A stretch of DNA of 64,000 nt. It comes from a virus. Its lineage: Duplodnaviria; Heunggongvirae; Uroviricota; Caudoviricetes. The first letter of the stretch is position 1; every line of letters starts with the position of its first letter. The notes beneath the pieces were generated by a model. It was not told the origin of the DNA and did no database searches. It saw only the letters and a list, made by a program, of their open reading frames with translations. A program made the position numbers and the translations under genes. Location of the stretch: IMG/VR virus record IMGVR_UViG_2654587728_000014, positions 5,853 to 69,852 of that record; one strand, given 5' to 3'. Below are positions 48,177 through 61,630 of the stretch, one piece after another.

Positions 48177-49229
48177 TTAGCTGTCGGCGAACTTCAGGCC
48201 AGTGACCATCGCGCACTTGCCATAGTCTTCAACGACATAAGCGTCATTGATGGACTGGTAGGTGGCGATGCGGTTGTATTCCGGTTCGTCTTTCATCAGA
48301 CGACGCATTGAACCTTTCTGCCAGTAAATCGACAGGTTGTTGAACGAGGTGATCAGCATCGTTGCATCCGGGAAGAACGGCGCAAGGAACACACCCAGCC
48401 CGCCAATGGTGCGCGATGACAGGATGAGCTGTCCGGCGAGTAATTCCGCATTGGGATTCTGGCCGCTGATGCTGTTCAGCACGGGCAGACGCAGCGAGTT
48501 AAACAGGTTGCGCCCCATAATCACCACGAGGTCGTCAGCTTCCTTGTGCCATTCATCCAGCAGGGATGAGCGTGCGTCCTGAACCAGTGCATCAGCGTTC
48601 GCATACTCACCCGCGTGCGCCACGGTGTTGTCCATGTTGCGGGAGGTCAGCGTCACGTCATTCATTACGCGCGCGCTGGCATTGGTTCTGATGTGCTCCA
48701 GCCACCCCACGTTAACGTCCTGAAGCAGCTTGTTGGTGCTGAAGTTGGATTTTTCCGCGTGTGACGTGCCGTTAAAGCCGATCATGATGCGGTCAAGCGC
48801 CACCTGTCGGGCAATCTGTGCGCTGATGCGGGTCTGGAAGTCATTGTGCGCCGCCCAGGCATCAAGCTGCGGATACGAAATAAACGTGTCGTAGTTCACC
48901 TGCTCACACTGGTACTGACGGGACTTCAGGTCGACAGCGTTAATCGGGTTGCGGCGATCTGTGCCGTCATAACTGGTATTTGTGCGCGCAATCGGCCCGG
49001 TGGTGTCCATGAGGACTTTTTCGCCTTTCTGGTCGGTCACACCGATCACGTTAATTTTTTTTGTAAGTTCGGTGCTATCCTTTGAGGCGTTTTCAAAACG
49101 CTGCTGCACCGAGGGTTCCACGGTAAATCGCGATACCAGCCCAGAAACCGGGATATTGTTAATCGACGCCTGTCGCGTCATGTAGCAGCCCAGCTTGTTA
49201 CGGGCATTATCTGACATCACCAGATTCAT
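48177..49229 (-). CDS. major capsid protein (P2 gpN-like)
   Basis: 350 aa. Confidence 0.8.
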   Translation of the reverse strand: MNLVMSDNARNKLGCYMTRQASINNIPVSGLVSRFTVEPSVQQRFENASKDSTELTKKINVIGVTDQKGEKVLMDTTGPIARTNTSYDGTDRRNPINAVDLKSRQYQCEQVNYDTFISYPQLDAWAAHNDFQTRISAQIARQVALDRIMIGFNGTSHAEKSNFSTNKLLQDVNVGWLEHIRTNASARVMNDVTLTSRNMDNTVAHAGEYANADALVQDARSSLLDEWHKEADDLVVIMGRNLFNSLRLPVLNSISGQNPNAELLAGQLILSSRTIGGLGVFLAPFFPDATMLITSFNNLSIYWQKGSMRRLMKDEPEYNRIATYQSINDAYVVEDYGKCAMVTGLKFADS

Positions 49230-49252: not shown

Positions 49253-50122
49253 TCAGAAGTCAGCCAGCTGGTCGGAGGCTGCGCCCGTTGCGGTGAACCG
49301 GTTCTGCGGATCGCCGTCCTGCGTGCGCAGCTTTTCCTTCAGTGCTGTCAGCTCTGTGGTCAGCGAAGTGATTTTCTGGCTGTCCTGCTGATGGCGGGTT
49401 TCCAGTGCATTAAAGCGGTCGATAATATCGGCCTGTGACGTTGCGACACCTTCCACCGCTTCCTGAATACGGGAGAAACTGGCGTCATCCGCTTTGCGGC
49501 CACGGCCAATAATCCCCATAACGCGGTTAAACCACTGGGTGCCTTCTTCCTGACGTTGTTCGGTGAGTTCGATAAGTTCTGACTCCATAGCGGCGGTGAA
49601 CATCGCCACGTCTCCCTGCTGACAGTTGAATGTCATCAGTTGCATACGTTGTTGTGCCGCAAAGGCCAGACGTTCCGTGCCCAGGCTGGCGGGGGTGTCG
49701 GTCATTGCCAGCCCGCGCAGGTAAGGGCCTCCCGTGATGGTTGACTGTGGTTCCAGCTCAATACTGGAGTAAATTTTTTTACCATCGTTAAGCAGGGACA
49801 TCATGCGAGCGGTCGGCTCAATTTCGGCATACAGTGCCGTGCGGCCTGCCAGCGGGCCATCGGTTATGTCTTCGGTGCTCAACCCCACAACATCGCCCAT
49901 AGCGGAAAACTCGCTACCGGGGAGTGGTGACAGGATGTGCTCAATATTCACACGTGCACCATAAACGGACGGGTTATAACTGGTGGCGGCAGCTTTCAGC
50001 ATGTCGCCGTTGATTTCGCGCCCGTCTGCCGTCACACCGGAGACAGCCACGCGAAACTTTTTGCGGGATGTCTTTTTTTCATTAGTCATAGTTTTTGCCC
50101 CTCTGACTGGTTCTTCAGTCAT
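49253..50122 (-). CDS. capsid scaffold protein (P2 gpO-like)
   Basis: 289 aa; divergent from P-Q. Confidence 0.7.
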   Translation of the reverse strand: MTEEPVRGAKTMTNEKKTSRKKFRVAVSGVTADGREINGDMLKAAATSYNPSVYGARVNIEHILSPLPGSEFSAMGDVVGLSTEDITDGPLAGRTALYAEIEPTARMMSLLNDGKKIYSSIELEPQSTITGGPYLRGLAMTDTPASLGTERLAFAAQQRMQLMTFNCQQGDVAMFTAAMESELIELTEQRQEEGTQWFNRVMGIIGRGRKADDASFSRIQEAVEGVATSQADIIDRFNALETRHQQDSQKITSLTTELTALKEKLRTQDGDPQNRFTATGAASDQLADF

Positions 50123-50243: not shown

Positions 50244-51995
50244 ATGATTCAGGACGCTTTTGTGCGCCAGCGTGCGCGGCAACTTTACTGGCAGGGTTAT
50301 CCGCCCGCAGAAATATCACGTCTGATGGGAATAAACCCGAACACGATTTATGCGTGGAAAAAACGCGACCAGTGGGATGAAACGCCACCCGTGCAGCGTG
50401 TCACGCAGTCCATCGATGCGCGCCTCATCCAGCTTACTGAAAAACAGAATAAAACAGGTGGTGACTTCAAGGAAATAGACCTGCTGACCCGGCAGCTTAA
50501 AAAGCTGCATGATGGCCAGCCGGATGTGATGGCCGCAGGAAAGAAAGGCCGGGCGAAAAAACTCAAAAATCATTTCACGCCGGAACAGATTGCCGCACTG
50601 CGGGAAAAAATCATCAGCAGGCTGGAGTGGCATCAGCGGGGCTGGTTTGACTCCCTGACCCTTTGCAGGGAAGCCGGGATACGTAACAGGATGGTCCTGA
50701 AATCCCGACAGATTGGGGCGACCTGGTATTTTGCTCAGGAAGCACTGCTGATGGCGCTGCGTGACGATGTGGCGCAACCTTACCAGCGTAACCAGATTTT
50801 TTTGTCTGCGTCGCGTCGTCAGGCGTTCCAGTTTAAAAGCATTATTCAGGAGGCTGCATCTGAAGTTGATGTGGAGCTGAAAGGGGGCGATAAAATCATC
50901 CTCTCCAACGGCGCAGAGCTGCATTTTCTTGGTACTTCTGCTGCGACGGCACAGTCCTACACGGGCAATTTTTATTTTGATGAATTTTTCTGGGTCAGTC
51001 GCTTTGCTGAACTGCGCAAGGTGGCTGGCGCTATGGCAACCCTCAGCGGACTGCGGCGCACCTACTTCTCCACGCCATCCACCGAAACGCACGAGGCATA
51101 CGCCTACTGGAACGGCGACCGCTGGAACGAGAAAAAGGCCTCGCATAAACGCCAGCGTTTTTCTGTGGACTGGAAAACGCTGCATAACGGGCTTATCTGC
51201 CCTGACCGGACGTGGCGGCAAATTGTCACGCTGGAAGATGTGGTTAATCACGGCTGGAAACACACCGATATTGATGAAATTCGTGATGAAAACACCGAAG
51301 ACGAGTTCCTCAATCTCTATATGTGTGAGTTTGTCCGCGAAGGGGAATCGGCATTTAACCTGAATATCCTGATTGGCTGTGGTGTTGACGGATACGACGA
51401 CTGGAAAGACTGGAAACCTTTTGCTCCCCGCCCGATGGGGAATCGTCCGGTATGGATTGGGTATGACGCAAACGGCAGCAGTGGAAACGGCGACAGCGGC
51501 GCTGTGTCCGTGGTGGTTCCTCCGGCTGTTCCTGGCGGCCGTTTTCGAACGGTGGAGACGCGACGCGTTCAGGGGCTGGAGTTTGAAGAACAGGCCAGAG
51601 TCATTGAAGAGTTCACGTGTCGCTACAACGTGGAACACATCGGCATTGATGTGACAGGCGGGAACGGGGAGGCTGTTTATCAGATAGTGAAACGGTTTTT
51701 CCCTGCTGCTATTCCGTACACCTTCACGCTGTCATCAAAACGGTCGCTGGTACTGAAAATGCTGCAAATAATGCGTGCCGGGCGGTGGGAATACGATCGC
51801 GCCGAACGCGAGCTGGTCGCAGCCTTTAACGCCGTGCGTAAGGTGAAAACACCGGGCGGCTTTATCACTTACGAAACGGACCGCGCGAGGGGGATCAGCC
51901 ACGGCGACCTTGCGTGGGCAACCATGCTTGCTGTCATTAACGAACCAATTGGCGGCGAAGGAGAAAACGAGCGTTTCACGGTTATGGAGTTCTGA
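50244..51995 (+). CDS. terminase ATPase (large) subunit (P2 gpP-like)
   Basis: 583 aa; N-terminal HTH-like, ATPase and nuclease regions. Confidence 0.8.
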   Translation: MIQDAFVRQRARQLYWQGYPPAEISRLMGINPNTIYAWKKRDQWDETPPVQRVTQSIDARLIQLTEKQNKTGGDFKEIDLLTRQLKKLHDGQPDVMAAGKKGRAKKLKNHFTPEQIAALREKIISRLEWHQRGWFDSLTLCREAGIRNRMVLKSRQIGATWYFAQEALLMALRDDVAQPYQRNQIFLSASRRQAFQFKSIIQEAASEVDVELKGGDKIILSNGAELHFLGTSAATAQSYTGNFYFDEFFWVSRFAELRKVAGAMATLSGLRRTYFSTPSTETHEAYAYWNGDRWNEKKASHKRQRFSVDWKTLHNGLICPDRTWRQIVTLEDVVNHGWKHTDIDEIRDENTEDEFLNLYMCEFVREGESAFNLNILIGCGVDGYDDWKDWKPFAPRPMGNRPVWIGYDANGSSGNGDSGAVSVVVPPAVPGGRFRTVETRRVQGLEFEEQARVIEEFTCRYNVEHIGIDVTGGNGEAVYQIVKRFFPAAIPYTFTLSSKRSLVLKMLQIMRAGRWEYDRAERELVAAFNAVRKVKTPGGFITYETDRARGISHGDLAWATMLAVINEPIGGEGENERFTVMEF

Positions 51996-53041
51996 TGAGC
52001 AGAAAAAATAAAAAAGTGCGCATGAGTTCACGCATTGATCTCGCTGATGCGCTCAGGAAAGAATCATCGCTCAGTGCATTCACATTTGATGGTCCTTATC
52101 GCCTGACCGGGCATGACCTGCTGGACAATATGTACTGTGCTGATAACGGGCGGTGGTATGAAACCCCGGTGGACTGGTACGGTCTGGCAAGAGCAGCCCG
52201 GCAAACGTCCTGGCATCAGTCTGCGCTTTACTTTAAGCGCAATGTATTACTCGGTTGCTACATCCCGCACCCGCTGCTTTCCCGGCAGGATTTCTCGGCG
52301 CTGGCGCTGGACTGGTTTGTGTTCGGTAACGCATTCCTTGAGCTTCGAAGCAATATGCTCGGCGAACCGCTTAAATTACGGCACGCCCTGGCGAAATACA
52401 TGCGACGCGGAAGCGATCTTGAATCATGGTGGTATGTGCAGGATGGCAAGGACGCGTTTCAGTTTCGTCCTGGCAAAGTGTGCCACCTGATGAATCCGGA
52501 TATTAACCAGGAAATCTACGGCATGCCGGAATATCTTGGCGCATTACTCTCGGCCAGCCTTTCTCATTCGGCGGACATGTTCAGAAAACTGTACTACGAC
52601 AACGGATCCCACGCCGGGTGCATCATCTACATCGGTGCAGCGCAGGTAAACCGCGAAAGCATGGACTCCCTGAAAGAAACGCTACAGGGGGCACGTGGTG
52701 GTGGTGCGTTTAAAAACGTGCTCATTCATGCGCCCAACGGGGGCAAAGAGGGGGTGCAAATTTTGCCGTTCCAGCAGATCACCGCAAAAGATGAATTCAT
52801 GAATGTTAAGGCGGCATCCCGTGATGATGTGCTGGCTGCGCACCGCGTTCCGCCGCAACTGATGGGGGCGATGCCGGGCGAAAAAAGTGCGTTTGGCGAT
52901 GTGGAGAAGGCAGCGCGGGTTTACGCAATTAACGAGCTGATGCCCGTCATGGAGGCTATGAAGCACATCAATGACTGGCTTGGCGAAGAGGTGATCCGTT
53001 TTAACTCTTATGCTCTTCTTGATGAAAAAACAGCCCCGTGA
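51995..53041 (+). CDS. portal protein (P2 gpQ-like)
   Basis: 348 aa immediately after P. Confidence 0.8.
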   Translation: MSRKNKKVRMSSRIDLADALRKESSLSAFTFDGPYRLTGHDLLDNMYCADNGRWYETPVDWYGLARAARQTSWHQSALYFKRNVLLGCYIPHPLLSRQDFSALALDWFVFGNAFLELRSNMLGEPLKLRHALAKYMRRGSDLESWWYVQDGKDAFQFRPGKVCHLMNPDINQEIYGMPEYLGALLSASLSHSADMFRKLYYDNGSHAGCIIYIGAAQVNRESMDSLKETLQGARGGGAFKNVLIHAPNGGKEGVQILPFQQITAKDEFMNVKAASRDDVLAAHRVPPQLMGAMPGEKSAFGDVEKAARVYAINELMPVMEAMKHINDWLGEEVIRFNSYALLDEKTAP

Positions 53042-53057
53042 TGGGGCTGTCCTTTTT
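53025..53057. terminator. bidirectional terminator hairpin between portal and cargo gene
   Basis: AAAAAACAGCCCC-GTGAT-GGGGCTGTCCTTTTT overlapping the Q stop. Confidence 0.4.
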
Positions 53058-53619
53058 ACCAGAGTTGAACCATTTTCTGGGTGCCGTCAGGCTTGAGATT
53101 ATCAATTTCAGAGAGAACGTAATATTGAATGGCTTCACAAACGGTGGTGTAGGGTGAATTACCTTCTTTAAGTGGCACGATATTATTATTAACGCGAACC
53201 TGTATTTCATCGTTATACATTGCGATCGAAACAGGCGTGTGCACGAACGCGACTTCGCCAGGTGTGTCGTCAACCACCGTTTCAATACTAAAAGTCAGTT
53301 TTCGCTCATCATTGCTGCCCCGTGCTTTGGGGGTAGCGGCAGGGATCTGGGATAAAGGCATTCTGCGAAATCCTTCGGCTGCTTCCAGTCCGCATGAAAC
53401 GTAATGCTGGCGATTACCGTCGCTATCTGTCCAGGTCTGTGATGGCAGCTCCAGCGAGATTTCATAAGCATCAACAATGCCCTGGGCAAGGCGTACAAGC
53501 GGGGTCAGATCTTCATTGCGGCGAAAGCTCTCCTTTACCTGCTCCCGTTTTTCTCTTAACTGCTTGTAATTAATGACCATAAGACAGCCTCCATTGATTT
53601 CTTTGCTCGTATTTTGCAC
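53056..53619 (-). CDS. hypothetical cargo protein (ORFan)
   Basis: 187-aa ORF (likely start at MVINYKQ) convergent with Q and bounded by terminator hairpins. Confidence 0.4.
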   Translation of the reverse strand: MQNTSKEINGGCLMVINYKQLREKREQVKESFRRNEDLTPLVRLAQGIVDAYEISLELPSQTWTDSDGNRQHYVSCGLEAAEGFRRMPLSQIPAATPKARGSNDERKLTFSIETVVDDTPGEVAFVHTPVSIAMYNDEIQVRVNNNIVPLKEGNSPYTTVCEAIQYYVLSEIDNLKPDGTQKMVQLW

Positions 53620-54108
53620 TTATGAAGTATGGTCGGCAAGGTGCCGTATCGCTGACGCGCTTCGCTTGTCTGCTGCTTCGCCGGGGCATAAAAAATTTAT
53701 GCCCCGGCTCTCCAGCTCCTGTATCAATCAGATAATTTCACGACGCCTTCCAGTTTATCGCCACCATCGACGGTCAGACTCTTACGCAATTCCACCGCGT
53801 TGACTGTATGTTCTCGCTGCCTCAGTGCGATTTTGACGGCCTTACCTTTCACCCCATCAAATCAAAAGCCCTCACGCCTTTTTCATGCTCAGCGTGAGAA
53901 ATATGGCCATTCTGTTGTGTCTCTGCGACATCGTTCAGGGAATGCTATTTACCCCCTGAAACGCGGGCTGTTCCCCCGTCACCTGCGCGCAGAAAAAACG
54001 CGTTTTTTTGTGCACGTACGGATCCTTGACGGATCCAGCCACCACGCGGGCCGGAAGTACAAAAAGTCGTTCAAAAAAATTGTGCAAACTTGTGCACTAT
54101 CGTGCAAA

Positions 54109-54135
54109 CAAAAAAAGCGCCTTATCGGCGCTTCA
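54109..54135 (-). terminator. intrinsic terminator after small cargo gene
   Basis: On minus strand GAAGCGCCGATAAGGCGCTTTTTTT. Confidence 0.4.
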
Positions 54136-54141
54136 AAAGTA

Positions 54142-54411
54142 TCAATTGTTGCTGTTTATTAATCGCCAACCACGAACATATGCTTCATAGGCATCTCTGT
54201 GCCTTACAGTTCCAGCCTGGCTAAACGGAATGTTAGCTAAAACTAAATCATTCTGAGCCATAGCGCGTCCTTCAAGCGCATCTTTTATGCCTAGCTCAAA
54301 AGCACAGGCAGCGCATTTGTGCCGACCTTCTTGTCCTTGATATTCAGGGAGAGACAGAAATGTTGGATTATAACGATGAGGGTTCTTGCAAATACCTGTT
54401 TTAGCCCGCAC
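54142..54411 (-). CDS. hypothetical small protein with His/Cys cluster
   Basis: 89 aa; GTG start with GAGGT RBS; RHKCAACAFE cluster. Confidence 0.4.
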   Translation of the reverse strand: MRAKTGICKNPHRYNPTFLSLPEYQGQEGRHKCAACAFELGIKDALEGRAMAQNDLVLANIPFSQAGTVRHRDAYEAYVRGWRLINSNN

Positions 54412-54536
54412 TTTATTTACCTCATAGGAAAAATATGCGTGCCTTTACAGAGGTGCGTGTAAGCAATAAAATATACGACGCACATTTTGATTTACTTCGG
54501 AAGGCACGCATATCAGGTTAAGTGAGCCCGACCGAG

Positions 54537-54577
54537 TTTTACGCCCCAATAGTTGCTGCTATTGGGGCGTTTTGCAT
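54537..54577 (+). terminator. hairpin with T run (plus-strand terminator-like)
   Basis: TTTTACGCCCCAATAG-TTGCTG-CTATTGGGGCGTTTTG. Confidence 0.35.
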
Positions 54578-54775
54578 GGACAATGCCGCGCAATTATCTT
54601 GTCGCTCACAATGCGAACGATCTTACAAAAAGGCACATTACTGTCAAGATAATTGATCGTTTTAATCGATAGATAATAGACAATCTATTTGTTTAACAGA
54701 TCGATTATTGAAGTAAGTGTGCCAAATGGAATGATACTGTCTCTATAAACGTGAGCATTTTTCGCGCAGATGCTT

Positions 54776-55087
54776 TTACTCAGGAAATAACGCCCGGATA
54801 TTCCCAGCCATCTGGCTGGTTATCTTAGCCACTGGTGCAGACTGTGCTTCAAACTTTTTTGAGCTGATTTGTGTCACAGGTAACATCTCATCATCAGCCC
54901 ATGCGGCCAGTCGGTAAGCCTCTGCCGGATTCGTCTTCAGAAGTGCCAGCCCGGCCAGAAAAGCCACGCGTTGGCCGCTTTTGCGGGCTTCTGGTGTAAG
55001 GCTGTCCAGCCAGGCGCATGCTTCTCCTTCGTTCTTGACGGCGGCGGGCTTCAGATAGAAACTTATCCGTCTGGTTGGTGTCGTCAT
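54776..55087 (-). CDS. ParR/StbB-like partition adaptor protein
   Basis: About 104 aa from the internal Met; ISFYLKP start resembles R1 ParR IAFKLNP; start overlaps the ParM stop. Confidence 0.45.
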   Translation of the reverse strand: MTTPTRRISFYLKPAAVKNEGEACAWLDSLTPEARKSGQRVAFLAGLALLKTNPAEAYRLAAWADDEMLPVTQISSKKFEAQSAPVAKITSQMAGNIRALFPE

Positions 55088-55091
55088 TGGT

Positions 55092-56051
55092 TTACTCCTT
55101 GTCCATTGCGTACAGCCCATTAACCAGAGCAAACTGTGGCACCCCGTCCGCGATGAAAGTCGCATTAACTCCGCAGGCTTCGCGGATAGCGGGTGCCACA
55201 ATCTCCGCCCCGCCACCGACAACCATCACCCGCCCGTAACCCGAAAAAACCGCCAGCGCGCGGATCACGCGTTGTTTCAGTGTTTCTTCCTTTTCACGAA
55301 TAACCGCCATCAGGCTGGCGTAATGCGCGTCATTGTGGATGTGCTGGCGCAGCCAGGCTTCATTATGGCGATGTTCGATAATGGTATTGGCGATGTGGTG
55401 ACTGGTGCGCATACCGTTAGTGGCCATCACCGACAGTACGGCATCGGCCATAAGAGAAACGCCTACGTGTGGATCGCAAAACACCTGGCTGATACCTGCC
55501 AGTTGCCCCTGAACCTTTGCCACATCCAGCGTGGTTCCGCCCAAATCCACAATCAGCAGGGATTCAAACGGACTCATGTCAGCCAGTGCTTTAAAGCCAG
55601 CCGGAATGGATTCAGGCATAACCCGTACGTTACGGATAGTGAATGCTTCGCCGTTCTGGTACTCCACCGGGCGCATGACGTTCGCTTTTTTGCGGTTGAT
55701 GTTGGCCATGTCCGGCTGTGCGTTTGTGTCGAAATATTCGCTCAGTGGCAGGGTAACAACCACATCCACTTCCTGTGGCGTGATGTCTGATTTGACCAGC
55801 GCGTGATGAATGGCAATGACATTCACATCGCTGTACTGGTATTGCGTGTCGGTCGTCTGGACAAAGCGATCGCTGACCGGATCAAAACCATAGCGCACGC
55901 CATCAAGCATGTAGTTAGCAGGCTGCGAGCCACCGAACGGCGCAGACCATTCCGACTTGAAGCTGTTCGGGCTGATGGCGTTGCGGCGTTCGCCGTTCTC
56001 AGTCCATGCCAGCTTGATGTTGGTGGAGCCGTCGTCGATGTAAATTTTCAT
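55092..56051 (-). CDS. ParM/StbA-like actin-family segregation ATPase
   Basis: 319 aa; MKIYIDDGSTNIKLAW, SDVNVIAIHHAL, MPESIPAG and IVDLGGTTLD match plasmid R1 ParM as remembered. Confidence 0.7.
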   Translation of the reverse strand: MKIYIDDGSTNIKLAWTENGERRNAISPNSFKSEWSAPFGGSQPANYMLDGVRYGFDPVSDRFVQTTDTQYQYSDVNVIAIHHALVKSDITPQEVDVVVTLPLSEYFDTNAQPDMANINRKKANVMRPVEYQNGEAFTIRNVRVMPESIPAGFKALADMSPFESLLIVDLGGTTLDVAKVQGQLAGISQVFCDPHVGVSLMADAVLSVMATNGMRTSHHIANTIIEHRHNEAWLRQHIHNDAHYASLMAVIREKEETLKQRVIRALAVFSGYGRVMVVGGGAEIVAPAIREACGVNATFIADGVPQFALVNGLYAMDKE

Positions 56052-56074: not shown

Positions 56075-56190
56075 ATTAATCGTTTACGGGATTCTGAAAT
56101 CCCGTTTTTGCCTGTTTTGTGCGCGCCTCATATATCGCTGCGCGTTTTTTGCTCATTTACGGGATTCGTGAGTCCCGTTTCTGTCTGTTT
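56075..56190. repeat. two ~40-bp direct repeats each containing a palindrome (candidate parC-like centromere)
   Basis: TTTACGGGATTCTGAAATCCCGTTTTTGCCTGTTTTGTG and TTTACGGGATTCGTGAGTCCCGTTTCTGTCTGTTTTTTG immediately upstream of parM; the second overlaps the 3' end of gene A. Confidence 0.3.
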
Positions 56191-58995
56191 TTTGTTTCCA
56201 CTGGTCAGGCCACCCCGCAGCAGGTCTGCTTTGCGGCTGGCGCGTTCAGTGGTTTCACTGATTCTCTGTGCGTGCTCTGCGTCGCGGATGGCGCGCAGCA
56301 TGTCAGAAAGCACGGTAACGGGTGTTTTCATGGTGTTCTGGTCCTGCTGAAGTGTGGATGCCAGGCGTGCGGCGGCTTCAGGGTCTGATGCCCCCAGCTG
56401 TGCCAGATAGCTGGCGACCGGGTTATGGCGGATCTCCGTGCTGCTTACGCCATGATTACGGCTCAGACGCTGCCAGAGCTGCGTGATTCGGCTGTCCGGG
56501 CGGGTATCCGGTTTGCGTACAATTTCAAATCCCTGCGGTGCAATGATGCTGCCGTCAACGTACAGACTGCCGCCCCGTAACAGGTGCTGCATCTGTTGTT
56601 CACCGATATGCAGGCCGAGAGATTCAGCAGACTCCCGCCATTCTTTAGCGAGTAACTCGTGGTTATCAGGCAAAGGCCGCTGCTGTTTGCGGCTCTGTGT
56701 CCAGTTCTGCATTTCATCGCTGCTGTTTTTTGCCTGTTTGTCACGAAGCGAACGCATCAGCGCCCGGCGTTCGTGCCGTTTCAGTGAGCGCATCCATTCA
56801 TTTACTTCAACGCCGTCAGGAAGCTGCGGCCACGGTGCTGGCCGTTCTTCCGGCTGTTCTGTCCCGTTGTTGCCTGTTTCCTGTACACGGGGACAGTTAT
56901 TGCCACGAGTCCAAGGGGCGGCAGGGCCGCCCTGAAGGTCAAAACCATTTTCGCGGGCGCTGTCTTCCGCTTCCGGTTTGCGTCTTACCAGCTTCCAGTT
57001 ATCCGGATGCGTGCATACGCGGGAAGACTCCCCAATGAGCGGCGACCAGATCCCGTAAATCTGTACGCTCTGTTCACCGTAATCGTTCAGCTCATCTGCG
57101 AGGTCGTAGGCGGTGCGAATCAGGTAGTCTTTGCGTGGAACAAGTACGCCACCCTGTTTCTCAATGTAGGTGGCAAAACATCCGGCATCAGCGGCAGCGA
57201 GTACCGCGTCCATTGCGTCATCCTTCAGCCGTTGCGGGCCTTCCGGATTGCGTGCCATCTGGCTGGCAAGGCGGCGCAGTTCACGCCACACCTGACGGGA
57301 GGGGATGCCAAAGAACTGGAACTGACGGACCCGGTGAAGGCGCGCCCAGCCGATGGCGCGCTCCACGCTCTCGGCCATTGATTTACCTGTTTCGTGGTCA
57401 ACGCGTGGCTTGCCCGTTTTCGGGTCGATGCCATCCACGGCGCGGCTGTCCAGGTTCTTTCCGATGTAGGTGGCGATGTAGCTGGTTGGCGTGCCTTTTG
57501 AGCCGTCGACGTACTCCGCCTTAAAACGCGGAGTTATGTCATCGCCCAGCTCGTGGCGGTCTTCCTGAATGGCAATATCGCAGACGTGGGACACGATGGT
57601 TTCAATCTCGTCCGGATGTGCAAAGACCATCATATGCCAGTGCACAGTGCCGTCATGGTGAGGCTCCACCGTGCGGATGCCATACCAGCGCAGGCCGTCG
57701 CGGTTCAGTTTTTTGCGGACCGCCGCAAAAAACGTGTTAACCAGGTAATCGCTGGAGTCGCGCATTGTGGCCCCGTTCCATTTGGGATTCGGATGACCGT
57801 TCTCCGTTGTTGCGTGGTATTTTGACGGGCAGGTGACAGTCAGAAACACCGCTCTGTCGCCACGGGCTTCGGCCAGAAGTTCCAGCCCCTTCATGGTGGC
57901 CATCATTTCTGCCTTACGGTGAACCGGGTTACTTACTCCCGCGTAATACACCGTCTCGAGATCAATCGTGAACCCGTCTTCATTTTCCAGCATGAAACTT
58001 TTCAGGAAATCGCGTGTTTTCTCGCGCTGTGCGCGAAACTCGCTTAACGCGTCCTGGCTCAGATAGGGTGATGTTTTTCTGGAAACCAGACAGGCGGCGC
58101 GGAGTTGTTCTTCCCGCCACTCGCAACGTAACAGCCACAGTTTGCGTTTCCACCATTCCGCACAGGTCAGGCGAAGGGTTGCGCCCGGCAGCAGCTCCGT
58201 GTCCGGTTCGTTCCTCCGGTCTTTGTCTGTTGTCAGTGCGTCATAATGTGGAGGCATGGCGTGCAGGTGTAACGCCATGCGGGCCAGCATCTGATACGCC
58301 TTCAGCGTTACATCCATGGTCAGCTCACCATCGGTCGCGCCAAAGCCATCGCAGAGTTTTTCGAAGGTGCTGCTGAACATCGCCGCCGTCATGGTGGCCA
58401 GCGTCTGTATCTGGTGCTTGTTGAGCTGCGGCAGGTAAAGCAAATCATCCAGGCGTTCGCGTCCGGCAAGGGAGCGATAACCCGGTGTCAGCCAGCGGTG
58501 GTCGGTGCGGTCCAGGCGTTCGAATATTTTGCGCAGGGTTCCGCGCGCGTAGCGTTCAGCCTGCCAGCTCTTTTTGCCTTTCTGGCGATCGGCTTCCTGT
58601 TTTTTGCGCAGGAAAGAGAGGTGGCGGCTCAGAGGTTTACGCAGATAAACGGGAAGCACCTTCAGTGTGGCAAAAGCACGGGCCACCGGGTCTTGTTCTG
58701 TTGCCTGACGCTTGCTGATGATGCTTTGTGCCAGCTTTTCACGCTGTCCGGCTTCCTCAAGGGATGCCATGAGTTTTTTACCCACGGTGGATTGTGCGAA
58801 AAAGGCTTCCTCCTTCGCTTCCTGTTCTTCCAGAGCCTTTTTGTCTGCCTCAAGGTAGTAACGGATGGCGCGTTGCAGGTCGGTTTCAGTTTCCTGCCTG
58901 TGCTCCGTAAATCTGGCCGGATCAATGGCTGGCCGTGGTTCATTCCAGCTCCATGCAAACTCATTCATGGCTGGTATCCCGTCACGCGCTGCCAC
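56128..58995 (-). CDS. replication initiation endonuclease (P2 gpA-like, rolling-circle HUH)
   Basis: 955 aa; HUH-like TVHWHMMVF and Tyr-containing YIATYIGK motifs. Confidence 0.8.
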   Translation of the reverse strand: MAARDGIPAMNEFAWSWNEPRPAIDPARFTEHRQETETDLQRAIRYYLEADKKALEEQEAKEEAFFAQSTVGKKLMASLEEAGQREKLAQSIISKRQATEQDPVARAFATLKVLPVYLRKPLSRHLSFLRKKQEADRQKGKKSWQAERYARGTLRKIFERLDRTDHRWLTPGYRSLAGRERLDDLLYLPQLNKHQIQTLATMTAAMFSSTFEKLCDGFGATDGELTMDVTLKAYQMLARMALHLHAMPPHYDALTTDKDRRNEPDTELLPGATLRLTCAEWWKRKLWLLRCEWREEQLRAACLVSRKTSPYLSQDALSEFRAQREKTRDFLKSFMLENEDGFTIDLETVYYAGVSNPVHRKAEMMATMKGLELLAEARGDRAVFLTVTCPSKYHATTENGHPNPKWNGATMRDSSDYLVNTFFAAVRKKLNRDGLRWYGIRTVEPHHDGTVHWHMMVFAHPDEIETIVSHVCDIAIQEDRHELGDDITPRFKAEYVDGSKGTPTSYIATYIGKNLDSRAVDGIDPKTGKPRVDHETGKSMAESVERAIGWARLHRVRQFQFFGIPSRQVWRELRRLASQMARNPEGPQRLKDDAMDAVLAAADAGCFATYIEKQGGVLVPRKDYLIRTAYDLADELNDYGEQSVQIYGIWSPLIGESSRVCTHPDNWKLVRRKPEAEDSARENGFDLQGGPAAPWTRGNNCPRVQETGNNGTEQPEERPAPWPQLPDGVEVNEWMRSLKRHERRALMRSLRDKQAKNSSDEMQNWTQSRKQQRPLPDNHELLAKEWRESAESLGLHIGEQQMQHLLRGGSLYVDGSIIAPQGFEIVRKPDTRPDSRITQLWQRLSRNHGVSSTEIRHNPVASYLAQLGASDPEAAARLASTLQQDQNTMKTPVTVLSDMLRAIRDAEHAQRISETTERASRKADLLRGGLTSGNKKQTETGLTNPVNEQKTRSDI

Positions 58996-60765: not shown

Positions 60766-61182
60766 CTATGCGTTAAATACGGCACGTTGCGCGTCATCAA
60801 TGAATACAGCTTGAGAGCGTTCTATCAGGCGGAGATTTGTCAGAAGCTCTGACTCTTTTGTGTGGTAAGGCGTTATCAGGTATTTGCCGTGCAGTTCGGC
60901 AATAATGGTGTATTGCGTCATTATTGCCGAACCAAGAATGTAAATGCGGCGTCCAATGCTGGACGGATTCATGGCTGCAACTGTTGACTGTGTTTTAAGA
61001 GTATCGATTTCTTTGCCCTGTTCCTCAATAATTTTGGCTGCGTCAGCGGTGATTTTTGCAATGGTCAGTGCGTGAAGTGCTGCCATATGTTGGCTACGCT
61101 TCACGGCATCTTTAGCCATTTCATCTTCCGCTTCTGATATTTTTTTAAATGTGTCGATAATGCCTTCTTCTTTTGCTTTCAT
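60766..61182 (-). CDS. hypothetical protein
   Basis: 138-aa ORF. Confidence 0.35.
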   Translation of the reverse strand: MKAKEEGIIDTFKKISEAEDEMAKDAVKRSQHMAALHALTIAKITADAAKIIEEQGKEIDTLKTQSTVAAMNPSSIGRRIYILGSAIMTQYTIIAELHGKYLITPYHTKESELLTNLRLIERSQAVFIDDAQRAVFNA

Positions 61183-61384
61183 TTTATATCTCCGTTATTT
61201 ACGCGTGCGAATACCTCCATTAATACGGATGGTTTTCACGTTTTCTTATTTAATTTGATGTTTTATTTGTATCGTTATTCATCAGAGAAAAAACGCTCGA
61301 TCTTTTTCACTGAATTAATAATTCGCATAATCCCAATGGCGCAGACCACCGAAATAATCAGAACAAGCCATGAGATAAATATAC

Positions 61385-61630
61385 TCATGCGATATTTCCC
61401 AACTTATACGGTTCAATATGTTCCCCGCATTCTGCGGCACAGATCAGCTCGGAAAGTTCGTTAAGTGCATCCAGATCATCAGCGTAAAAAGCCACGTCAT
61501 ACAGACTTCGGATTGCTCTGGTCAATGAGTCACGGGCCGCACGTTCAGCATGAGCGCCTGATGCACTTAAGCGAAAATAAAAACGCTCAAGTGCTTTGTT
61601 AATGAGAGTTTTATATTCTTTGCCCATCAC
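61385..61630 (-). CDS. hypothetical protein
   Basis: 81-aa ORF. Confidence 0.3.
   Translation of the reverse strand: MMGKEYKTLINKALERFYFRLSASGAHAERAARDSLTRAIRSLYDVAFYADDLDALNELSELICAAECGEHIEPYKLGNIA

What the first reader, a model, noticed from the sequence alone, without database searches (positions are those of the whole stretch)
53056..54775. ORFan cargo genes in the P2-type hotspot between portal and replication genes
In P2 the region between gene A and the portal carries tin and old and is a known hotspot for anti-phage systems (established knowledge). Here it holds two unrecognisable minus-strand genes (53056-53619, 54142-54411), each with its own terminator hairpin and separated by ~500 bp of non-coding DNA containing short GTGCA-type repeats. 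The 89-aa protein has a His/Cys cluster. These are candidate single-gene defence or anti-defence factors.
Basis: partly seen in the sequence, partly recalled or inferred. Interest (0 to 1): 0.6.

Follow-up and report, generated by a model that had tools for sequence, protein, structure and literature searches.

The report
Two accessory genes flanking prophage cos
Two small genes of unknown function sit as swappable cargo on either side of the DNA-packaging site of a P2-family prophage of E. coli; one belongs to a widespread unnamed zinc-type domain family tied to nucleases and restriction systems, but neither has a demonstrated role.

Summary
The sequence features are real, but their description needs correcting. 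The window holds a P88-like (Xuanwuvirus, P2-family) prophage of E. coli.

- **Gene X** (53056-53580, minus strand, 174 aa) starts at an ATG behind a GGAGG, not at 53619.
- **Gene Y** (54142-54411, minus strand, 89 aa) is as described.
- **Both are autonomous cassettes.** Each has a predicted promoter and a terminator.
- **Both are optional.** Of 1149 E. coli genomes carrying this phage backbone, 397 have X, 166 have Y and 74 have both.
- **Neither is an ORFan.** Both are PHROG families, and both are listed as 'hypothetical' in the published P2 hotspot catalogue.
- **The ~500 bp between them is not a spacer.** It is an invariant phage backbone and most probably the cos packaging region. It splits the hotspot into a portal-side slot (X) and a replication-side slot (Y).
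- **Sister phages carry known defence systems in Y's slot:** IetAS, PD-Lambda-5, AbiLi and several PDC systems.
- **Y has a conserved Cys/His pattern (C-H-C-C) and an unnamed two-repeat domain.** The domain is fused to NOV_C or HNH nucleases. It also occurs as a third gene of Dam-type restriction-modification operons.
- **Phage copies of Y share a GATC-laden promoter and a predicted antisense RNA.**
- **X has no detectable relatives** by sequence or by fold.

A conflict role is plausible for Y and open for X. Neither is tested.

The parts
51995..53041 (+). Portal protein gpQ (context; left border of the hotspot)
   Evidence: Pfam Phage_portal E 8e-18; RefSeq 'phage portal protein'.
53017..53651 (.). 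X module: an optional insert that replaces ~21 nt, including the last codons of the portal gene, in X-less relatives
   Evidence: Probe mapping on 80 related loci. With X, the portal end matches throughout. Without X, the match stops at window ~53016 and the backbone resumes at 53652.
53030..53050 (.). Bidirectional intrinsic terminator shared by the portal gene (+) and gene X (-)
   Evidence: 9-bp stem with T-runs on both strands (sequence). Minus-strand fold -21.5 kcal/mol, z -5.9.
53056..53580 (-). Gene X: 174 aa, acidic (pI 5.0), cytoplasmic, mixed helix/sheet protein of unknown function; phrog_5091; WP_000236495.1
53611..53639 (-). Predicted sigma-70 promoter of X (TTGCCG-17-CAAAAT), inside the X module
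   Evidence: Both hexamers are conserved in position in homologues only ~60% identical (Salmonella L136/L137 and L138).
53652..54106 (.). Conserved non-coding backbone present in all P88-like phages; probable cos (packaging) region
   Evidence: 90-100% identical in all 76 loci where it could be recovered and in 16 P88-like phage records; the 53940-54115 part was found in 1149 of 5426 E. coli genomes.
53680..53708 (.). Perfect 13-bp hairpin at the left edge of the backbone; probably the portal-operon terminator in X-less phages (P2 tQ analogue)
   Evidence: Inverted repeat I5. Fold -30.1 kcal/mol, z -8.2. 96-100% conserved. P2 has terminator tQ at the equivalent place.
53952..53991 (.). Invariant core of the backbone; candidate cohesive-end sequence at 53965-53983 (minus strand GGTGACGGGGGAACAGCCC)
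   Evidence: 100% conserved in all 72 distinct backbone sequences compared, window included. It is the best-conserved block against Enterobacter phage phiT5282H and Klebsiella phage ST16-OXA48phi5.4, in both between portal and cargo. It aligns with the P2 cos 19-mer at 13/19, which alone is not significant.
54007..54109 (+). TGTGCA-type direct repeats (54009, 54081, 54091, 54101); inferred terminase-binding (cosB-like) sites
   Evidence: Local cluster against 27 copies in 64 kb. Conserved in phiT5282H and partly in the Klebsiella phage and in P2 at the equivalent position. Function is inferred.
54107..54775 (.). Y module in the replication-side cargo slot; always inherited with the 364-nt upstream region and a particular stbB allele
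   Evidence: More than 25 alternative contents in 72 loci, an empty slot in L105, and Y in 12 of 72. The alternatives include known defence systems.
54114..54134 (-). Intrinsic terminator of gene Y
   Evidence: 8-bp GC-rich stem followed by seven T's. Fold -13.8 kcal/mol, z -3.4.
54142..54411 (-). Gene Y: 89 aa, basic (pI 9.2), two-repeat protein with a conserved C-H-C-C pattern (probable zinc site); phrog_3941; WP_001594304.1
   Evidence: ORF and GAGG ribosome-binding site. phrog_3941 E 9e-49. 173 representatives at 50% clustering and 1598 clusters by profile. Invariant C8, H12, R30, H31, C33, C36, S64, Q65, R70, H71. AF2 pLDDT 88, pTM 0.82. No PDB relative by fold or sequence.
54444..54574 (+). 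Predicted cis-antisense RNA unit: promoter TTTACA-17-TAAAAT (54444-54472), RNA of ~95 nt, terminator hairpin 54541-54570 with a T-run
   Evidence: Promoter scan. Hairpin -25 kcal/mol, z -5.5. The same promoter position and a hairpin with a different stem sequence recur in four diverged phage contexts. No Rfam family reaches threshold. Not shown experimentally.
54620..54647 (-). Predicted promoter of Y (TTGACA-16-TAAGAT), ~200-nt structured leader; GATC at 54619, 54655 and 54699 around the promoter elements
   Evidence: Promoter scan, 10 of 12 matches. Conserved in the diverged modules L125 and L143. GATC clustering upstream of Y homologues in all six phage loci examined (four distinct upstream sequences; P 0.04 to 0.0002 per locus). 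Leader fold -70 kcal/mol, z -3.3.
54776..56051 (-). StbB (ParR-like, 54776-55087) and ParM (55092-56051) partition genes (context; right border of the Y slot)
   Evidence: Pfam Plasmid_stab_B E 1e-23; StbA_N and ParM C-terminal domain E 1e-80 and 3e-68.
56128..58995 (-). Replication protein gpA homologue (context; outer border of the published hotspot)
   Evidence: Pfam Phage_GPA E 5e-129.

Best explanation
The interval holds two independent, optional accessory cassettes ('morons') of a P88-like P2-family prophage. They sit on either side of the conserved packaging (cos) region.

**Cassette Y.**
- It expresses a small basic protein with a conserved C-H-C-C pattern (probable zinc site) and two repeats.
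- The same domain serves elsewhere as the N-terminal module of NOV_C and HNH nucleases. It also occurs as a third gene of Dam-family restriction-modification operons. I infer that it binds nucleic acid.
- In phages its expression appears tightly gated: a promoter overlapped by Dam (GATC) sites, a ~200-nt structured leader, and a predicted ~95-nt cis-antisense RNA.
- Most likely mechanism: the lysogen keeps Y low. When control is lifted, for example by an infecting phage shutting off host transcription or by a change in methylation state, Y accumulates and binds DNA. This blocks the invader or arrests the cell, as in a type I toxin-antitoxin abortive-infection module.

**Cassette X.**
- It expresses an acidic cytoplasmic mixed helix/sheet protein with no enzymatic motif, from its own conserved sigma-70 promoter.
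- It most likely acts by binding and inhibiting a protein of a competing phage or of the host.

**Shown and inferred.**
- Shown: the modular anatomy, the optional distribution, the family memberships, the domain fusions and the neighbourhoods.
- Inferred: DNA binding, zinc binding, the antisense RNA, the cos assignment and any phenotype.

**My confidence by level.**
- Cargo (moron) status: ~0.9.
- Y involved in nucleic-acid-based conflict: ~0.55.
- The specific gated-toxin mechanism: ~0.25.
- Any specific role for X: ~0.15.
For: - **Anatomy and optionality.** Probe mapping on 80 related loci shows X present or replaced by 21 nt. It shows an invariant backbone at 53652-54106 and a variable slot up to stbB. 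X is in 397 E. coli genomes, Y in 166, both in 74, and the backbone in 1149 of 5426.
- **The slot is a defence site.** Sister phages carry IetA/IetS, PD-Lambda-5, PDC-S20, AbiLi, RmrA-like, PDC-M11 and PDC-M04 in the Y slot. The interval is the published hotspot.
- **Autonomous units.** Promoters and terminators are predicted for both genes. The X promoter is conserved in homologues ~60% identical.
- **Y family.** There are 173 representatives and 1598 clusters, with conserved C8, H12, C33, C36 and paired R-H motifs. Of 49 family members of 200 aa or more, 24 carry NOV_C, 15 carry HNH or HNH_2, 3 a DndB-like domain, 1 WYL and 1 HEPN.
- **Y neighbourhoods.** In six of six contexts of stand-alone homologues, the gene lies next to a Dam-family methyltransferase plus a type II restriction enzyme. 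It is often 18-20 nt after the restriction gene.
- **Only temperate phages carry Y homologues, at classic lysogenic-conversion sites.** These include the position directly downstream of cI in a P22-like phage.
- **Shared regulatory design.** Four diverged phage contexts have the same GATC-overlapped sense promoter and ~200-nt leader. They also share an antisense promoter 30-34 nt upstream of the start codon. All four also have a hairpin with an unrelated stem sequence, T-rich on its 3' side in three of them.
- **X.** Homologues in Salmonella and Trabulsiella also lie in the gpA-gpQ interval of P2-like prophages, mostly abutting the portal. X has pI 5.0.
Against: - Neither protein hits any PADLOC model of known or candidate defence systems, nor Pfam or NCBIfam.
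- No experiment exists for either. The hotspot catalogue lists them only as 'hypothetical', and the 2026 preprint's supplementary files do not mention them.
- A DNA-binding domain with no effector partner in the cassette is an unusual toxin.
- The antisense RNA and the promoters are consensus predictions.
- The window's long leader hairpin (54433-54513) is not conserved in the diverged module L125.
- The restriction-modification-associated homologues have no GATC clusters upstream. The GATC link is therefore regulatory at best.
- Y is degraded in phage 503458, so it is dispensable.
- X has no informative relative by sequence or structure.
- The cos assignment rests on position and conservation. 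Similarity to the P2 cos 19-mer is no better than chance. The only related linear phage record is cut elsewhere, at 54061/54062.
Confidence: 0.45

Rival explanations
1. Y is a restriction-modulating or anti-restriction factor, working like Lar/RalR of the Rac prophage or Ral of lambda. A free copy of a domain used by restriction-type nucleases and restriction-modification operons would compete with them or mis-regulate them. This would protect phage or prophage DNA rather than attack invaders.
For: - Stand-alone homologues are co-operonic with Dam-family restriction-modification genes in six of six contexts.
- The domain is the N-terminal module of NOV_C/HNH nucleases. A free copy could therefore act as a decoy.
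- Precedent: RalR is a prophage toxin controlled by a small RNA (PMC4041452). That it is also the small zinc-type restriction-alleviation protein Lar is from my own knowledge.
Against: - Y does not match the Lar family model in Pfam (no hit at E 0.1 or better).
- Y homologues were found only in temperate phages at lysogenic-conversion sites, including downstream of cI. None was found in virulent phages, where anti-restriction genes are common.
- Restriction-modification-type nucleases with this domain were not shown to exist in E. coli.
Confidence: 0.2
2. The Y cassette is a type I toxin-antitoxin-like addiction module. It would stabilise the element, for instance in a plasmid state supported by ParM/StbB, and have no role in phage defence.
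For: - A predicted antisense RNA faces a structured leader.
- Y is always co-inherited with a particular stbB allele next to the partition genes.
- The published survey suggests that the partition system may allow plasmid maintenance.
Against: - All 172 Y copies and all but one of the backbone copies in complete E. coli genomes are chromosomal.
- Y homologues in lambdoid and P22-like phages keep the same control region without partition genes.
- Toxicity of Y is untested.
Confidence: 0.15
3. Y is simply a small transcription regulator, a non-helix-turn-helix analogue of the controller (C) proteins of restriction-modification systems. In the prophage it would regulate itself or a few host or phage genes, with no direct action on invaders.
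For: - Its size, basic charge and position as a third small gene in restriction-modification operons fit.
- A palindromic element and GATC sites around its own promoter are conserved in L125.
Against: - About 88% of the long family members are fusions to nuclease or effector domains rather than to regulatory domains.
- In most operons the gene follows the restriction gene. From my own knowledge, C genes usually precede it.
- No helix-turn-helix or other known regulator fold was detected.
Confidence: 0.15
4. X is an accessory of packaging or head assembly rather than a conflict gene. This would explain why it keeps its place between cos and the portal gene in several genera.
For: X homologues 60-63% identical in Salmonella and a related contig abut the portal gene in P2-like prophages. 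In 80 P88-like loci the portal-side slot holds only X or nothing.
Against: - X is absent from about 65% of otherwise near-identical P88-like prophages.
- It has its own sigma-70-type promoter and converges on the late operon.
- In Trabulsiella the homologue sits next to gpA with toxin-antitoxin genes instead.
- It shows no similarity to virion or terminase proteins.
Confidence: 0.12
5. One or both genes are neutral hitch-hikers or decaying remnants kept by linkage to the hotspot.
For: There are no functional annotations. Y is fragmented in phage 503458. NCBI's annotation pipeline (PGAP) leaves Y unannotated in 7 of the 12 records sampled.
Against: X is conserved as an intact ORF from 96% down to 46% identity, with in-frame indels only. 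Y belongs to a large family with invariant residues. Its control region is conserved across unrelated phage backbones.
Confidence: 0.08

Closest known systems
P2 old and tin, and the catalogued gpA-gpQ hotspot cargo of P2-like phages (Rousset et al. 2022, PMC9122126)
   Same: Same genomic interval, next to cos, between the replication gene and the portal gene. Content is optional and swappable. Sister phages carry recognised defence systems in the same slot.
   Different: X and Y are unrelated to Old or Tin and match no PADLOC model. Here the hotspot is visibly split by the cos backbone into two slots, and the replication side also carries a ParM/StbB module. Both exact proteins appear in the published table only as 'hypothetical'.
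Lar/RalR-RalA of the Rac prophage (type I toxin-antitoxin; PMC4041452)
   Same: Both are prophage-borne proteins controlled by a small RNA acting on the mRNA, and both have links to DNA and restriction (for RalR/RalA). That RalR is also the small zinc-type restriction-alleviation protein Lar is from my own knowledge.
   Different: There is no sequence relationship: no Pfam Lar hit. RalA is trans-encoded with 16 nt of complementarity, whereas here a fully complementary cis-antisense RNA is predicted. Y has no demonstrated nuclease or toxic activity.
Nucleases with N-terminal recognition modules: NOV_C/DUF3883 proteins (PD-T4-1, PDC-S36 class) and HNH_2 proteins
   Same: The Y domain occupies the N-terminal position in 39 of 49 long family members that end in NOV_C or HNH domains.
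   Different: Y is the recognition-type module alone, without any effector domain or adjacent effector gene. What the module recognises is unknown.
Third small genes of type II restriction-modification operons (controller C proteins)
   Same: Stand-alone Y homologues are small basic proteins encoded within or next to Dam-family methyltransferase and restriction-enzyme operons.
   Different: Y has no helix-turn-helix and usually lies downstream of the restriction gene. No regulatory activity is shown. The prophage copy has no restriction-modification partner.
Antisense-controlled phage genes: P22 sar-ant, hok/sok; and the Dam-gated mom promoter of Mu
   Same: The layout is alike: a convergent promoter inside the leader, a short terminated antisense RNA, and several GATC sites at the promoter. 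The comparison with these systems is from my own knowledge.
   Different: Rfam gives only sub-threshold hits on the hairpin (sar at 22-23.5 bits against a cut-off of 43). The regulated protein is unrelated to Ant, Hok or Mom.

Membership tests
Cargo of the P2-family gpA-gpQ (cos-proximal) hotspot | Lies between the portal gene gpQ and the replication gene gpA of a P2-like prophage | tested here: met
   Pfam Phage_portal and Phage_GPA flank the interval. RefSeq annotation of a 99.8% identical locus agrees.
Cargo of the P2-family gpA-gpQ (cos-proximal) hotspot | Content differs among closely related prophages while the flanks stay conserved | tested here: met
   X is present in 397, and Y in 166, of 1149 backbone-carrying E. 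coli genomes. More than 25 arrangements occur in 72 loci.
Cargo of the P2-family gpA-gpQ (cos-proximal) hotspot | The same slot holds recognised anti-phage systems in relatives | tested here: met
   IetAS, PD-Lambda-5, PDC-S20, AbiLi, RmrA-like, PDC-M11 and PDC-M04 occupy the Y slot. No alternative cargo was seen in the X slot.
Known or candidate anti-phage defence protein (PADLOC-DB v2) | Significant match to a defence-system HMM | tested here: not met
   No family at E 0.1 or better for X or Y.
Moron (autonomous accessory transcription unit in a prophage) | Own promoter and terminator, and absent from close relatives | tested here: met
   Predicted promoters and terminators for both genes, with presence/absence polymorphism. 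Promoter activity itself was not measured.
Type I toxin-antitoxin module | Antisense RNA gene overlapping the toxin mRNA | tested here: inconclusive
   An antisense promoter (TTTACA-17-TAnnnT) is conserved in position in four diverged contexts. Each also has a hairpin, T-rich on its 3' side in three of the four. No transcript data are available.
Type I toxin-antitoxin module | The protein is toxic when the RNA antitoxin is removed | not testable with these tools
   Needs expression experiments.
Lar/RalR restriction-alleviation family (Pfam Lar_restr_allev) | Match to the family HMM (CxxC...CxxC zinc ribbon) | tested here: not met
   The Pfam scan of Y returned only a sub-threshold Dimerisation hit (E 0.06) and no Lar match. 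Y has a C-x3-H ... C-x2-C pattern instead.
Controller (C) proteins of restriction-modification systems | Helix-turn-helix (Xre-type) DNA-binding fold | tested here: not met
   No helix-turn-helix family in Pfam or NCBIfam. The predicted fold has no PDB match.
Controller (C) proteins of restriction-modification systems | Small gene inside a type II restriction-modification operon | tested here: met
   True for stand-alone homologues in six of six contexts. Not true for the prophage copy itself.
   Pfam gives none. PHROG families 5091 and 3941 are of 'unknown function'. Fold searches give none.
cos site of P2-family phages (for 53652-54106) | Lies just beyond the portal gene, between gpQ and the cargo | tested here: met
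   Same relative position as cosL/cosR in P2. The conserved block lies between portal and cargo in four genera.
cos site of P2-family phages (for 53652-54106) | Sequence similarity to the P2 19-nt cohesive end GGCGAGGCGGGGAAAGCAC | tested here: inconclusive
   13 of 19 at 53965-53983, but 18 sites in the window match as well or better.
cos site of P2-family phages (for 53652-54106) | Virion DNA ends map to the site | not testable with these tools
   The one linear record of a relative (P88_4B11) is cut at 54061/54062 without terminal redundancy. How its ends were determined is unknown.

The most novel reading that the evidence does not exclude
The Y cassette is a new kind of self-contained prophage conflict module with three elements: a Dam-methylation-sensitive promoter, a cis-antisense RNA, and a ~10-kDa zinc-stabilised DNA reader. 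Type IV-like NOV_C/HNH nucleases and Dam-type restriction-modification operons would use the same module. The stand-alone phage copy would then act either as an abortive-infection toxin or as a decoy against those nucleases.
Probability: 0.2. Interest if true: 0.75.

Novelty: new member of a known kind. Interest (0 to 1): 0.45.

Why it matters
The cos-proximal hotspot of P2-like phages has been a productive source of new anti-phage systems. About a fifth of P2-like elements carry only unannotated genes at their main defence loci.

Three results make these two genes better candidates for testing than generic 'hypothetical proteins':
- They sit in two separate slots on either side of cos.
- Y belongs to a large unnamed C-H-C-C-motif domain family attached to nucleases and to Dam-type restriction-modification operons.
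- Phage copies of Y share a distinctive control region.

If Y's domain proves to be a DNA or DNA-modification reader, that would explain the N-terminal halves of many predicted nucleases (39 of the 49 long family members examined).

If the two genes do nothing measurable, the result is still useful. It marks which parts of the interval are packaging backbone rather than cargo.

Tried and rejected
- **Family libraries.** Pfam, NCBIfam and PADLOC scans of X and Y gave nothing.
- **Solved structures, by sequence.** The Y profile gave nothing. The X profile hit only de novo designed helical-repeat proteins over residues 125-168. I reject these as compositional, since designed proteins cannot be homologues.
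- **Fold searches.**
  - X against viral models gave nothing at E 0.001 or better.
  - The AlphaFold-database library was unavailable.
- **BLAST of the P2 cos junction against the interval.** No significant hit.
- **Counting near-matches to the P2 cos 19-mer.** The candidate is not distinctive.
- **Looking for a packaging end at viral contig ends.** A motif scan was uninformative, because most contigs are prophage excerpts.
- **The P88_4B11 record ends.** They fall at 54061/54062 and do not coincide with the conserved core.
- **Literature search for a mapped cos of P88-like phages.** None found.
- **Rfam.** Only sub-threshold hits to the hairpin.
- **The 42-aa ORF at 53724-53852, annotated in some phage records.** Rejected as a gene: no codon-position bias, and it is disrupted in 8 of 72 sequences.
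- **Does Y act on GATC sites in the restriction-modification operons of its homologues?** There are no GATC clusters upstream of those operons.
- **One PADLOC call failed** on a malformed reference.
Full report
**Context.** The window carries a P2-family prophage of E. coli of the P88-like genus Xuanwuvirus. The genes around the finding are:
- capsid (48177-49229, minus strand);
- scaffold (49253-50122, minus strand);
- large terminase (50244-51995, plus strand);
- portal gpQ (51995-53041, plus strand);
- the two genes in question;
- a StbB/ParR-like gene (54776-55087, minus strand);
- ParM (55092-56051, minus strand);
- a 955-aa gpA-type replication protein (56128-58995, minus strand).

A 99.8% identical E. 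coli chromosome and several P88-like phage records have the same layout.

**The observation.** Both ORFs are real.

- *Gene X.* It should be read from the ATG at 53580 (GGAGG 7 nt upstream; 174 aa), as RefSeq does, not from the GTG at 53619.
- *Gene Y.* It is 54142-54411 (89 aa, GTG start with a GAGG ribosome-binding site).
- *Terminators.* X ends 5 nt before a hairpin (53030-53050) that has T-runs on both strands and also terminates the portal gene. Y ends 7 nt before its own terminator (54114-54134).
- *TGTGCA repeats.* These are a true local cluster: three copies in 88 nt, plus CGTGCA. The hexamer is otherwise under-represented, with 27 copies observed in 64 kb against 57 expected.
- *Cys/His residues in Y.* They are present and conserved.

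**Not ORFans.**
- X matches phrog_5091 (E 1e-67) and Y matches phrog_3941 (E 9e-49). Both families are of unknown function.
- X has homologues down to 46% identity in E. coli, Salmonella and Trabulsiella.
- Y is a member of a large family. It has 173 representatives at 50% clustering with E 0.001 or better, and 1598 clusters by profile search.
- Both exact RefSeq proteins appear as 'hypothetical' in Table S5A of the published survey of this hotspot (PMC9122126). There are at least 167 mentions of WP_000236495 and 23 of WP_001594304 in the stored part of the file.

**Modular anatomy.** I fetched 80 related loci through the portal protein and mapped nine probes from the window onto them. The picture is sharp.

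1. *X module.* The portal gene is followed either by the X module (window ~53017-53651) or by about 21 nt. The junction lies in the last codons of the portal gene.
2. *Backbone.* Next comes a backbone, 53652-54106. It was detected in all but two truncated loci and recovered in full from 76, at 90-100% identity.
3. *Variable slot.* After it comes a variable slot that runs to stbB. It has more than 25 different contents in 72 loci and is empty in L105. Y is present in 12 of the 72.

Y always travels with its 364-nt upstream region and with a stbB allele 97-100% identical to the window's. Other loci have alleles 72-89% identical.

In complete E. coli genomes:

| Element | Genomes (of 5426) |
|---|---|
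| Backbone | 1149 |
| X | 397 |
| Y module | 166 |
| Both X and Y | 74 |

Independent assortment would give about 57 genomes with both. All X and Y copies are chromosomal.

**The '500 bp of non-coding DNA'.** This is phage backbone, not cargo.

- Within it, 53952-53991 is identical in all 72 distinct backbone sequences compared (the window plus 71 others).
- The same block (GGGCTGTTCCCCCGTCACCTGCGC) is the best-conserved stretch against Enterobacter phage phiT5282H (Novemvirus) and Klebsiella phage ST16-OXA48phi5.4 (Reipivirus). In both it lies between the portal gene and the cargo.
- In a multiple alignment it falls on the 19-nt cohesive end of P2, and the TGTGCA repeats fall on TGCA-type repeats of P2.
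- In P2 the cos site lies at the same place relative to gene Q.

I therefore read the backbone as the packaging region, and the repeats as likely terminase-binding sites. This is an inference, with three weaknesses:
- The 13/19 match to the P2 cohesive end is no better than 18 other sites in the window.
- No mapped ends were found in the literature.
- The one linear record of a relative is cut at 54061/54062.

The 42-aa ORF annotated there in some records is not under coding constraint. The perfect hairpin at 53680-53708 is probably the portal-operon terminator of X-less phages.

**The slot Y occupies is a defence slot.** Large proteins found there in sister phages match PADLOC models for:
- IetS and IetA;
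- the PD-Lambda-5 methyltransferase together with an ATPase;
- PDC-S20 (KAP-type NTPase);
- AbiLi;
- RmrA-like proteins;
- PDC-M11A;
- PDC-M04A.

This agrees with the published description of the gpA-gpQ interval. That description also notes that about a quarter of P2-like phages carry a partition system there.

**Gene Y, the protein.** Y is basic (pI 9.2).

- *Sequence pattern.* It consists of two related ~35-residue units of the pattern [S]Q[GA]G-x-G-R-H-K-C-x-x-C-A-Y-x-x-G. The first unit and the N-terminus supply C8, H12, C33 and C36. The second unit has lost the cysteines. R30-H31 and R70-H71 are invariant.
- *Model.* With 121 sequences AlphaFold gives a confident model (pLDDT 88, pTM 0.82). 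Each unit is a short strand pair followed by a helix.

**Gene Y, what the family tells us.**

- *Fusions.* Most members are stand-alone proteins of 80-95 aa. Among the 49 representatives of 200 aa or more, 24 end in NOV_C (DUF3883; PDC-S36 and PD-T4-1-like in PADLOC). A further 15 end in HNH or HNH_2. Three carry a DndB/DpdB-type DGQHR domain, one WYL and one HEPN. In the NOV_C and HNH fusions the Y-type units are N-terminal, often as two complete C-H-C-C-motif units. That is the usual place for the recognition module of a restriction-type nuclease.
- *Neighbourhoods.* In six of six contexts of stand-alone homologues, the gene lies in or beside a type II restriction-modification unit.
  - The methyltransferase belongs to the Dam family (TIGR00571, 323 bits against a cut-off of 115).
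  - The restriction enzyme is of the DUF6996/6997/7226 type (PADLOC REase_II) or is DpnII.
  - Y-type genes often sit 18-20 nt after the restriction gene.
  - Some contexts also include a DUF3644 protein (PADLOC PDC-S19), TIR or AbiEii genes.
  - In L141 the three genes form an island between housekeeping genes.

- *Reading.* From this I infer that the domain binds nucleic acid and works in nucleic-acid-based conflict. What it recognises is unknown.

**Gene Y, in phages.**

- *Where it occurs.* A protein search of about 50,000 phage records found homologues only in temperate phages. They sit at classic lysogenic-conversion positions:
  - the P88-like hotspot, including a diverged 92-aa version in L125;
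  - between the antiterminator Q and the lysis genes of lambdoid phages (L042, L043, L144);
  - two genes downstream of, and on the same strand as, the cI repressor of a P22-like Salmonella phage (L143). By my own knowledge, rexAB of lambda sits at that position.
- *Shared control region.* These four backbones have otherwise unrelated flanks, yet the upstream ~260 nt has one design:
  - a sense promoter TTGAnn-16/17-TAnnAT at -204 to -236;
  - GATC sites at or beside the promoter hexamers, 3-5 GATC in 300 nt, with per-locus Poisson P from 0.04 to 0.0002;
  - a leader of about 200 nt;
  - an antisense promoter TTTACA-17-TAnnnT, 30-34 nt upstream of the start codon;
  - a strong hairpin 30-62 nt downstream of the predicted antisense start. 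Its stem sequence differs in each context, and a T-rich tract follows it in three of the four.
- *In the window.* These features predict a plus-strand RNA of ~95 nt (about 54480-54575) fully complementary to the Y leader. The leader itself folds strongly (-70 kcal/mol, z -3.3).
- *Rfam.* No Rfam family reaches threshold. The sub-threshold 'sar' hits cover only the hairpin.
- *Reading.* This is the arrangement of a tightly gated, possibly harmful product. It is why I favour a type I toxin-antitoxin-like or otherwise switch-like conflict module. It remains a prediction.

**Gene X.** X is acidic (pI 5.0), has no signal peptide or membrane segment, and shows no conserved catalytic motif.

- *Model.* The model (pLDDT 80) has an N-terminal helical hairpin, an antiparallel sheet and a C-terminal helix.
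- *Position.* Homologues are confined to the gpA-gpQ interval of P2-like prophages. They usually abut the portal gene (Salmonella, L138). In Trabulsiella the homologue sits next to gpA and toxin-antitoxin genes.
- *Promoter.* TTGCCG-17-CAAAAT (53611-53639) is conserved in position in homologues ~60% identical.
- *Reading.* X is therefore an old resident of this hotspot, optional and independently transcribed. Beyond 'probably a binding protein', I cannot assign a mechanism.

**Verdict.**
- The genes are catalogued but unstudied members of known phage protein families.
- The intergenic DNA is the packaging backbone.
- A defence or anti-defence role has circumstantial support for Y and is open for X.
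- The kind of thing is known (hotspot cargo), so novelty is modest.
- The useful new leads are the Y-domain family, with its nuclease and Dam-type restriction-modification associations, and the conserved GATC-plus-antisense control region of the phage copies.

Noticed in passing
window 54776-56051: An actin-type partition module (ParM plus a StbB/ParR-like protein) lies inside an integrated P2-like prophage, between the cargo slot and gpA. All but one of the related copies in complete E. coli genomes are chromosomal, so whether these phages ever live as plasmids is open. No centromere-like site was identified.
   Followed up: partly
window 54664-54706: A palindromic AT-rich element (AATCGAT...ATCGATT with internal TAGA/TCTA repeats) lies between the stbB stop and the Y promoter. 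It is conserved in the diverged module L125 but absent from lambdoid and P22-like Y contexts. It could be an operator or a partition site linked to the co-inherited stbB allele.
   Followed up: partly
window 53680-53708: A perfect 13-bp hairpin (-30 kcal/mol) at the left edge of the backbone has no T-run on either strand and is 96-100% conserved. It is probably the portal-operon terminator in X-less phages.
   Followed up: partly
window 53724-53852: A 42-aa ORF annotated as a gene in the P88, PhiR44_2 and P88_4B11 records shows no codon-position bias in its variation. It is broken in 8 of 72 distinct sequences, so it is likely an annotation artefact within the cos region.
   Followed up: yes
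window 54017-54037: A direct repeat ACGGATCC ... ACGGATCC, each copy containing a GATC, lies inside the backbone between the invariant core and the TGTGCA repeats.
   Followed up: no
window 54061/54062 (L007, L008): The linear GenBank record of phage P88_4B11 begins and ends exactly here, with no terminal redundancy. It also has a short deletion in the otherwise invariant core. It is unclear whether this reflects real DNA ends or an assembly choice.
   Followed up: partly
window 54142-54411 in other genomes (hits H166-H177): NCBI's annotation pipeline (PGAP) is inconsistent for gene Y: 7 of the 12 sampled records with a 98.6-100% identical sequence list no feature there.
   Followed up: no
L003 6338-6670; L004 4969-5301; L136 2737-3093: A small ClpX-type zinc-finger protein (zf-C4_ClpX, ~110-118 aa) recurs in the gpA-portal cargo region of P88, PhiR44_2 and a Salmonella P2-like prophage. 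In the two E. coli phages it lies next to stbB. It is another unstudied small cysteine-rich cargo protein.
   Followed up: no
window 56128-58995: The gpA-type replication protein is 955 aa. The Phage_GPA domain covers only residues 194-518, leaving about 440 C-terminal residues unassigned.
   Followed up: no
L052 5001-9753; L049 5001-9076; L140 1203-5255: In low-GC metagenomic contigs (31-34% GC) a recurring island combines several genes. It has the Y-type gene, a DUF3644 protein (PADLOC PDC-S19), a ~100-aa ORF, a Dam-family methyltransferase and a DUF6996/6997/7226 restriction enzyme, sometimes with a TIR protein. It may be a composite defence island worth describing on its own.
   Followed up: partly
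window 60800-61400: GC content drops to 37-43% here, against ~55% in the prophage body. This may be another accessory region or the prophage end.
   Followed up: no
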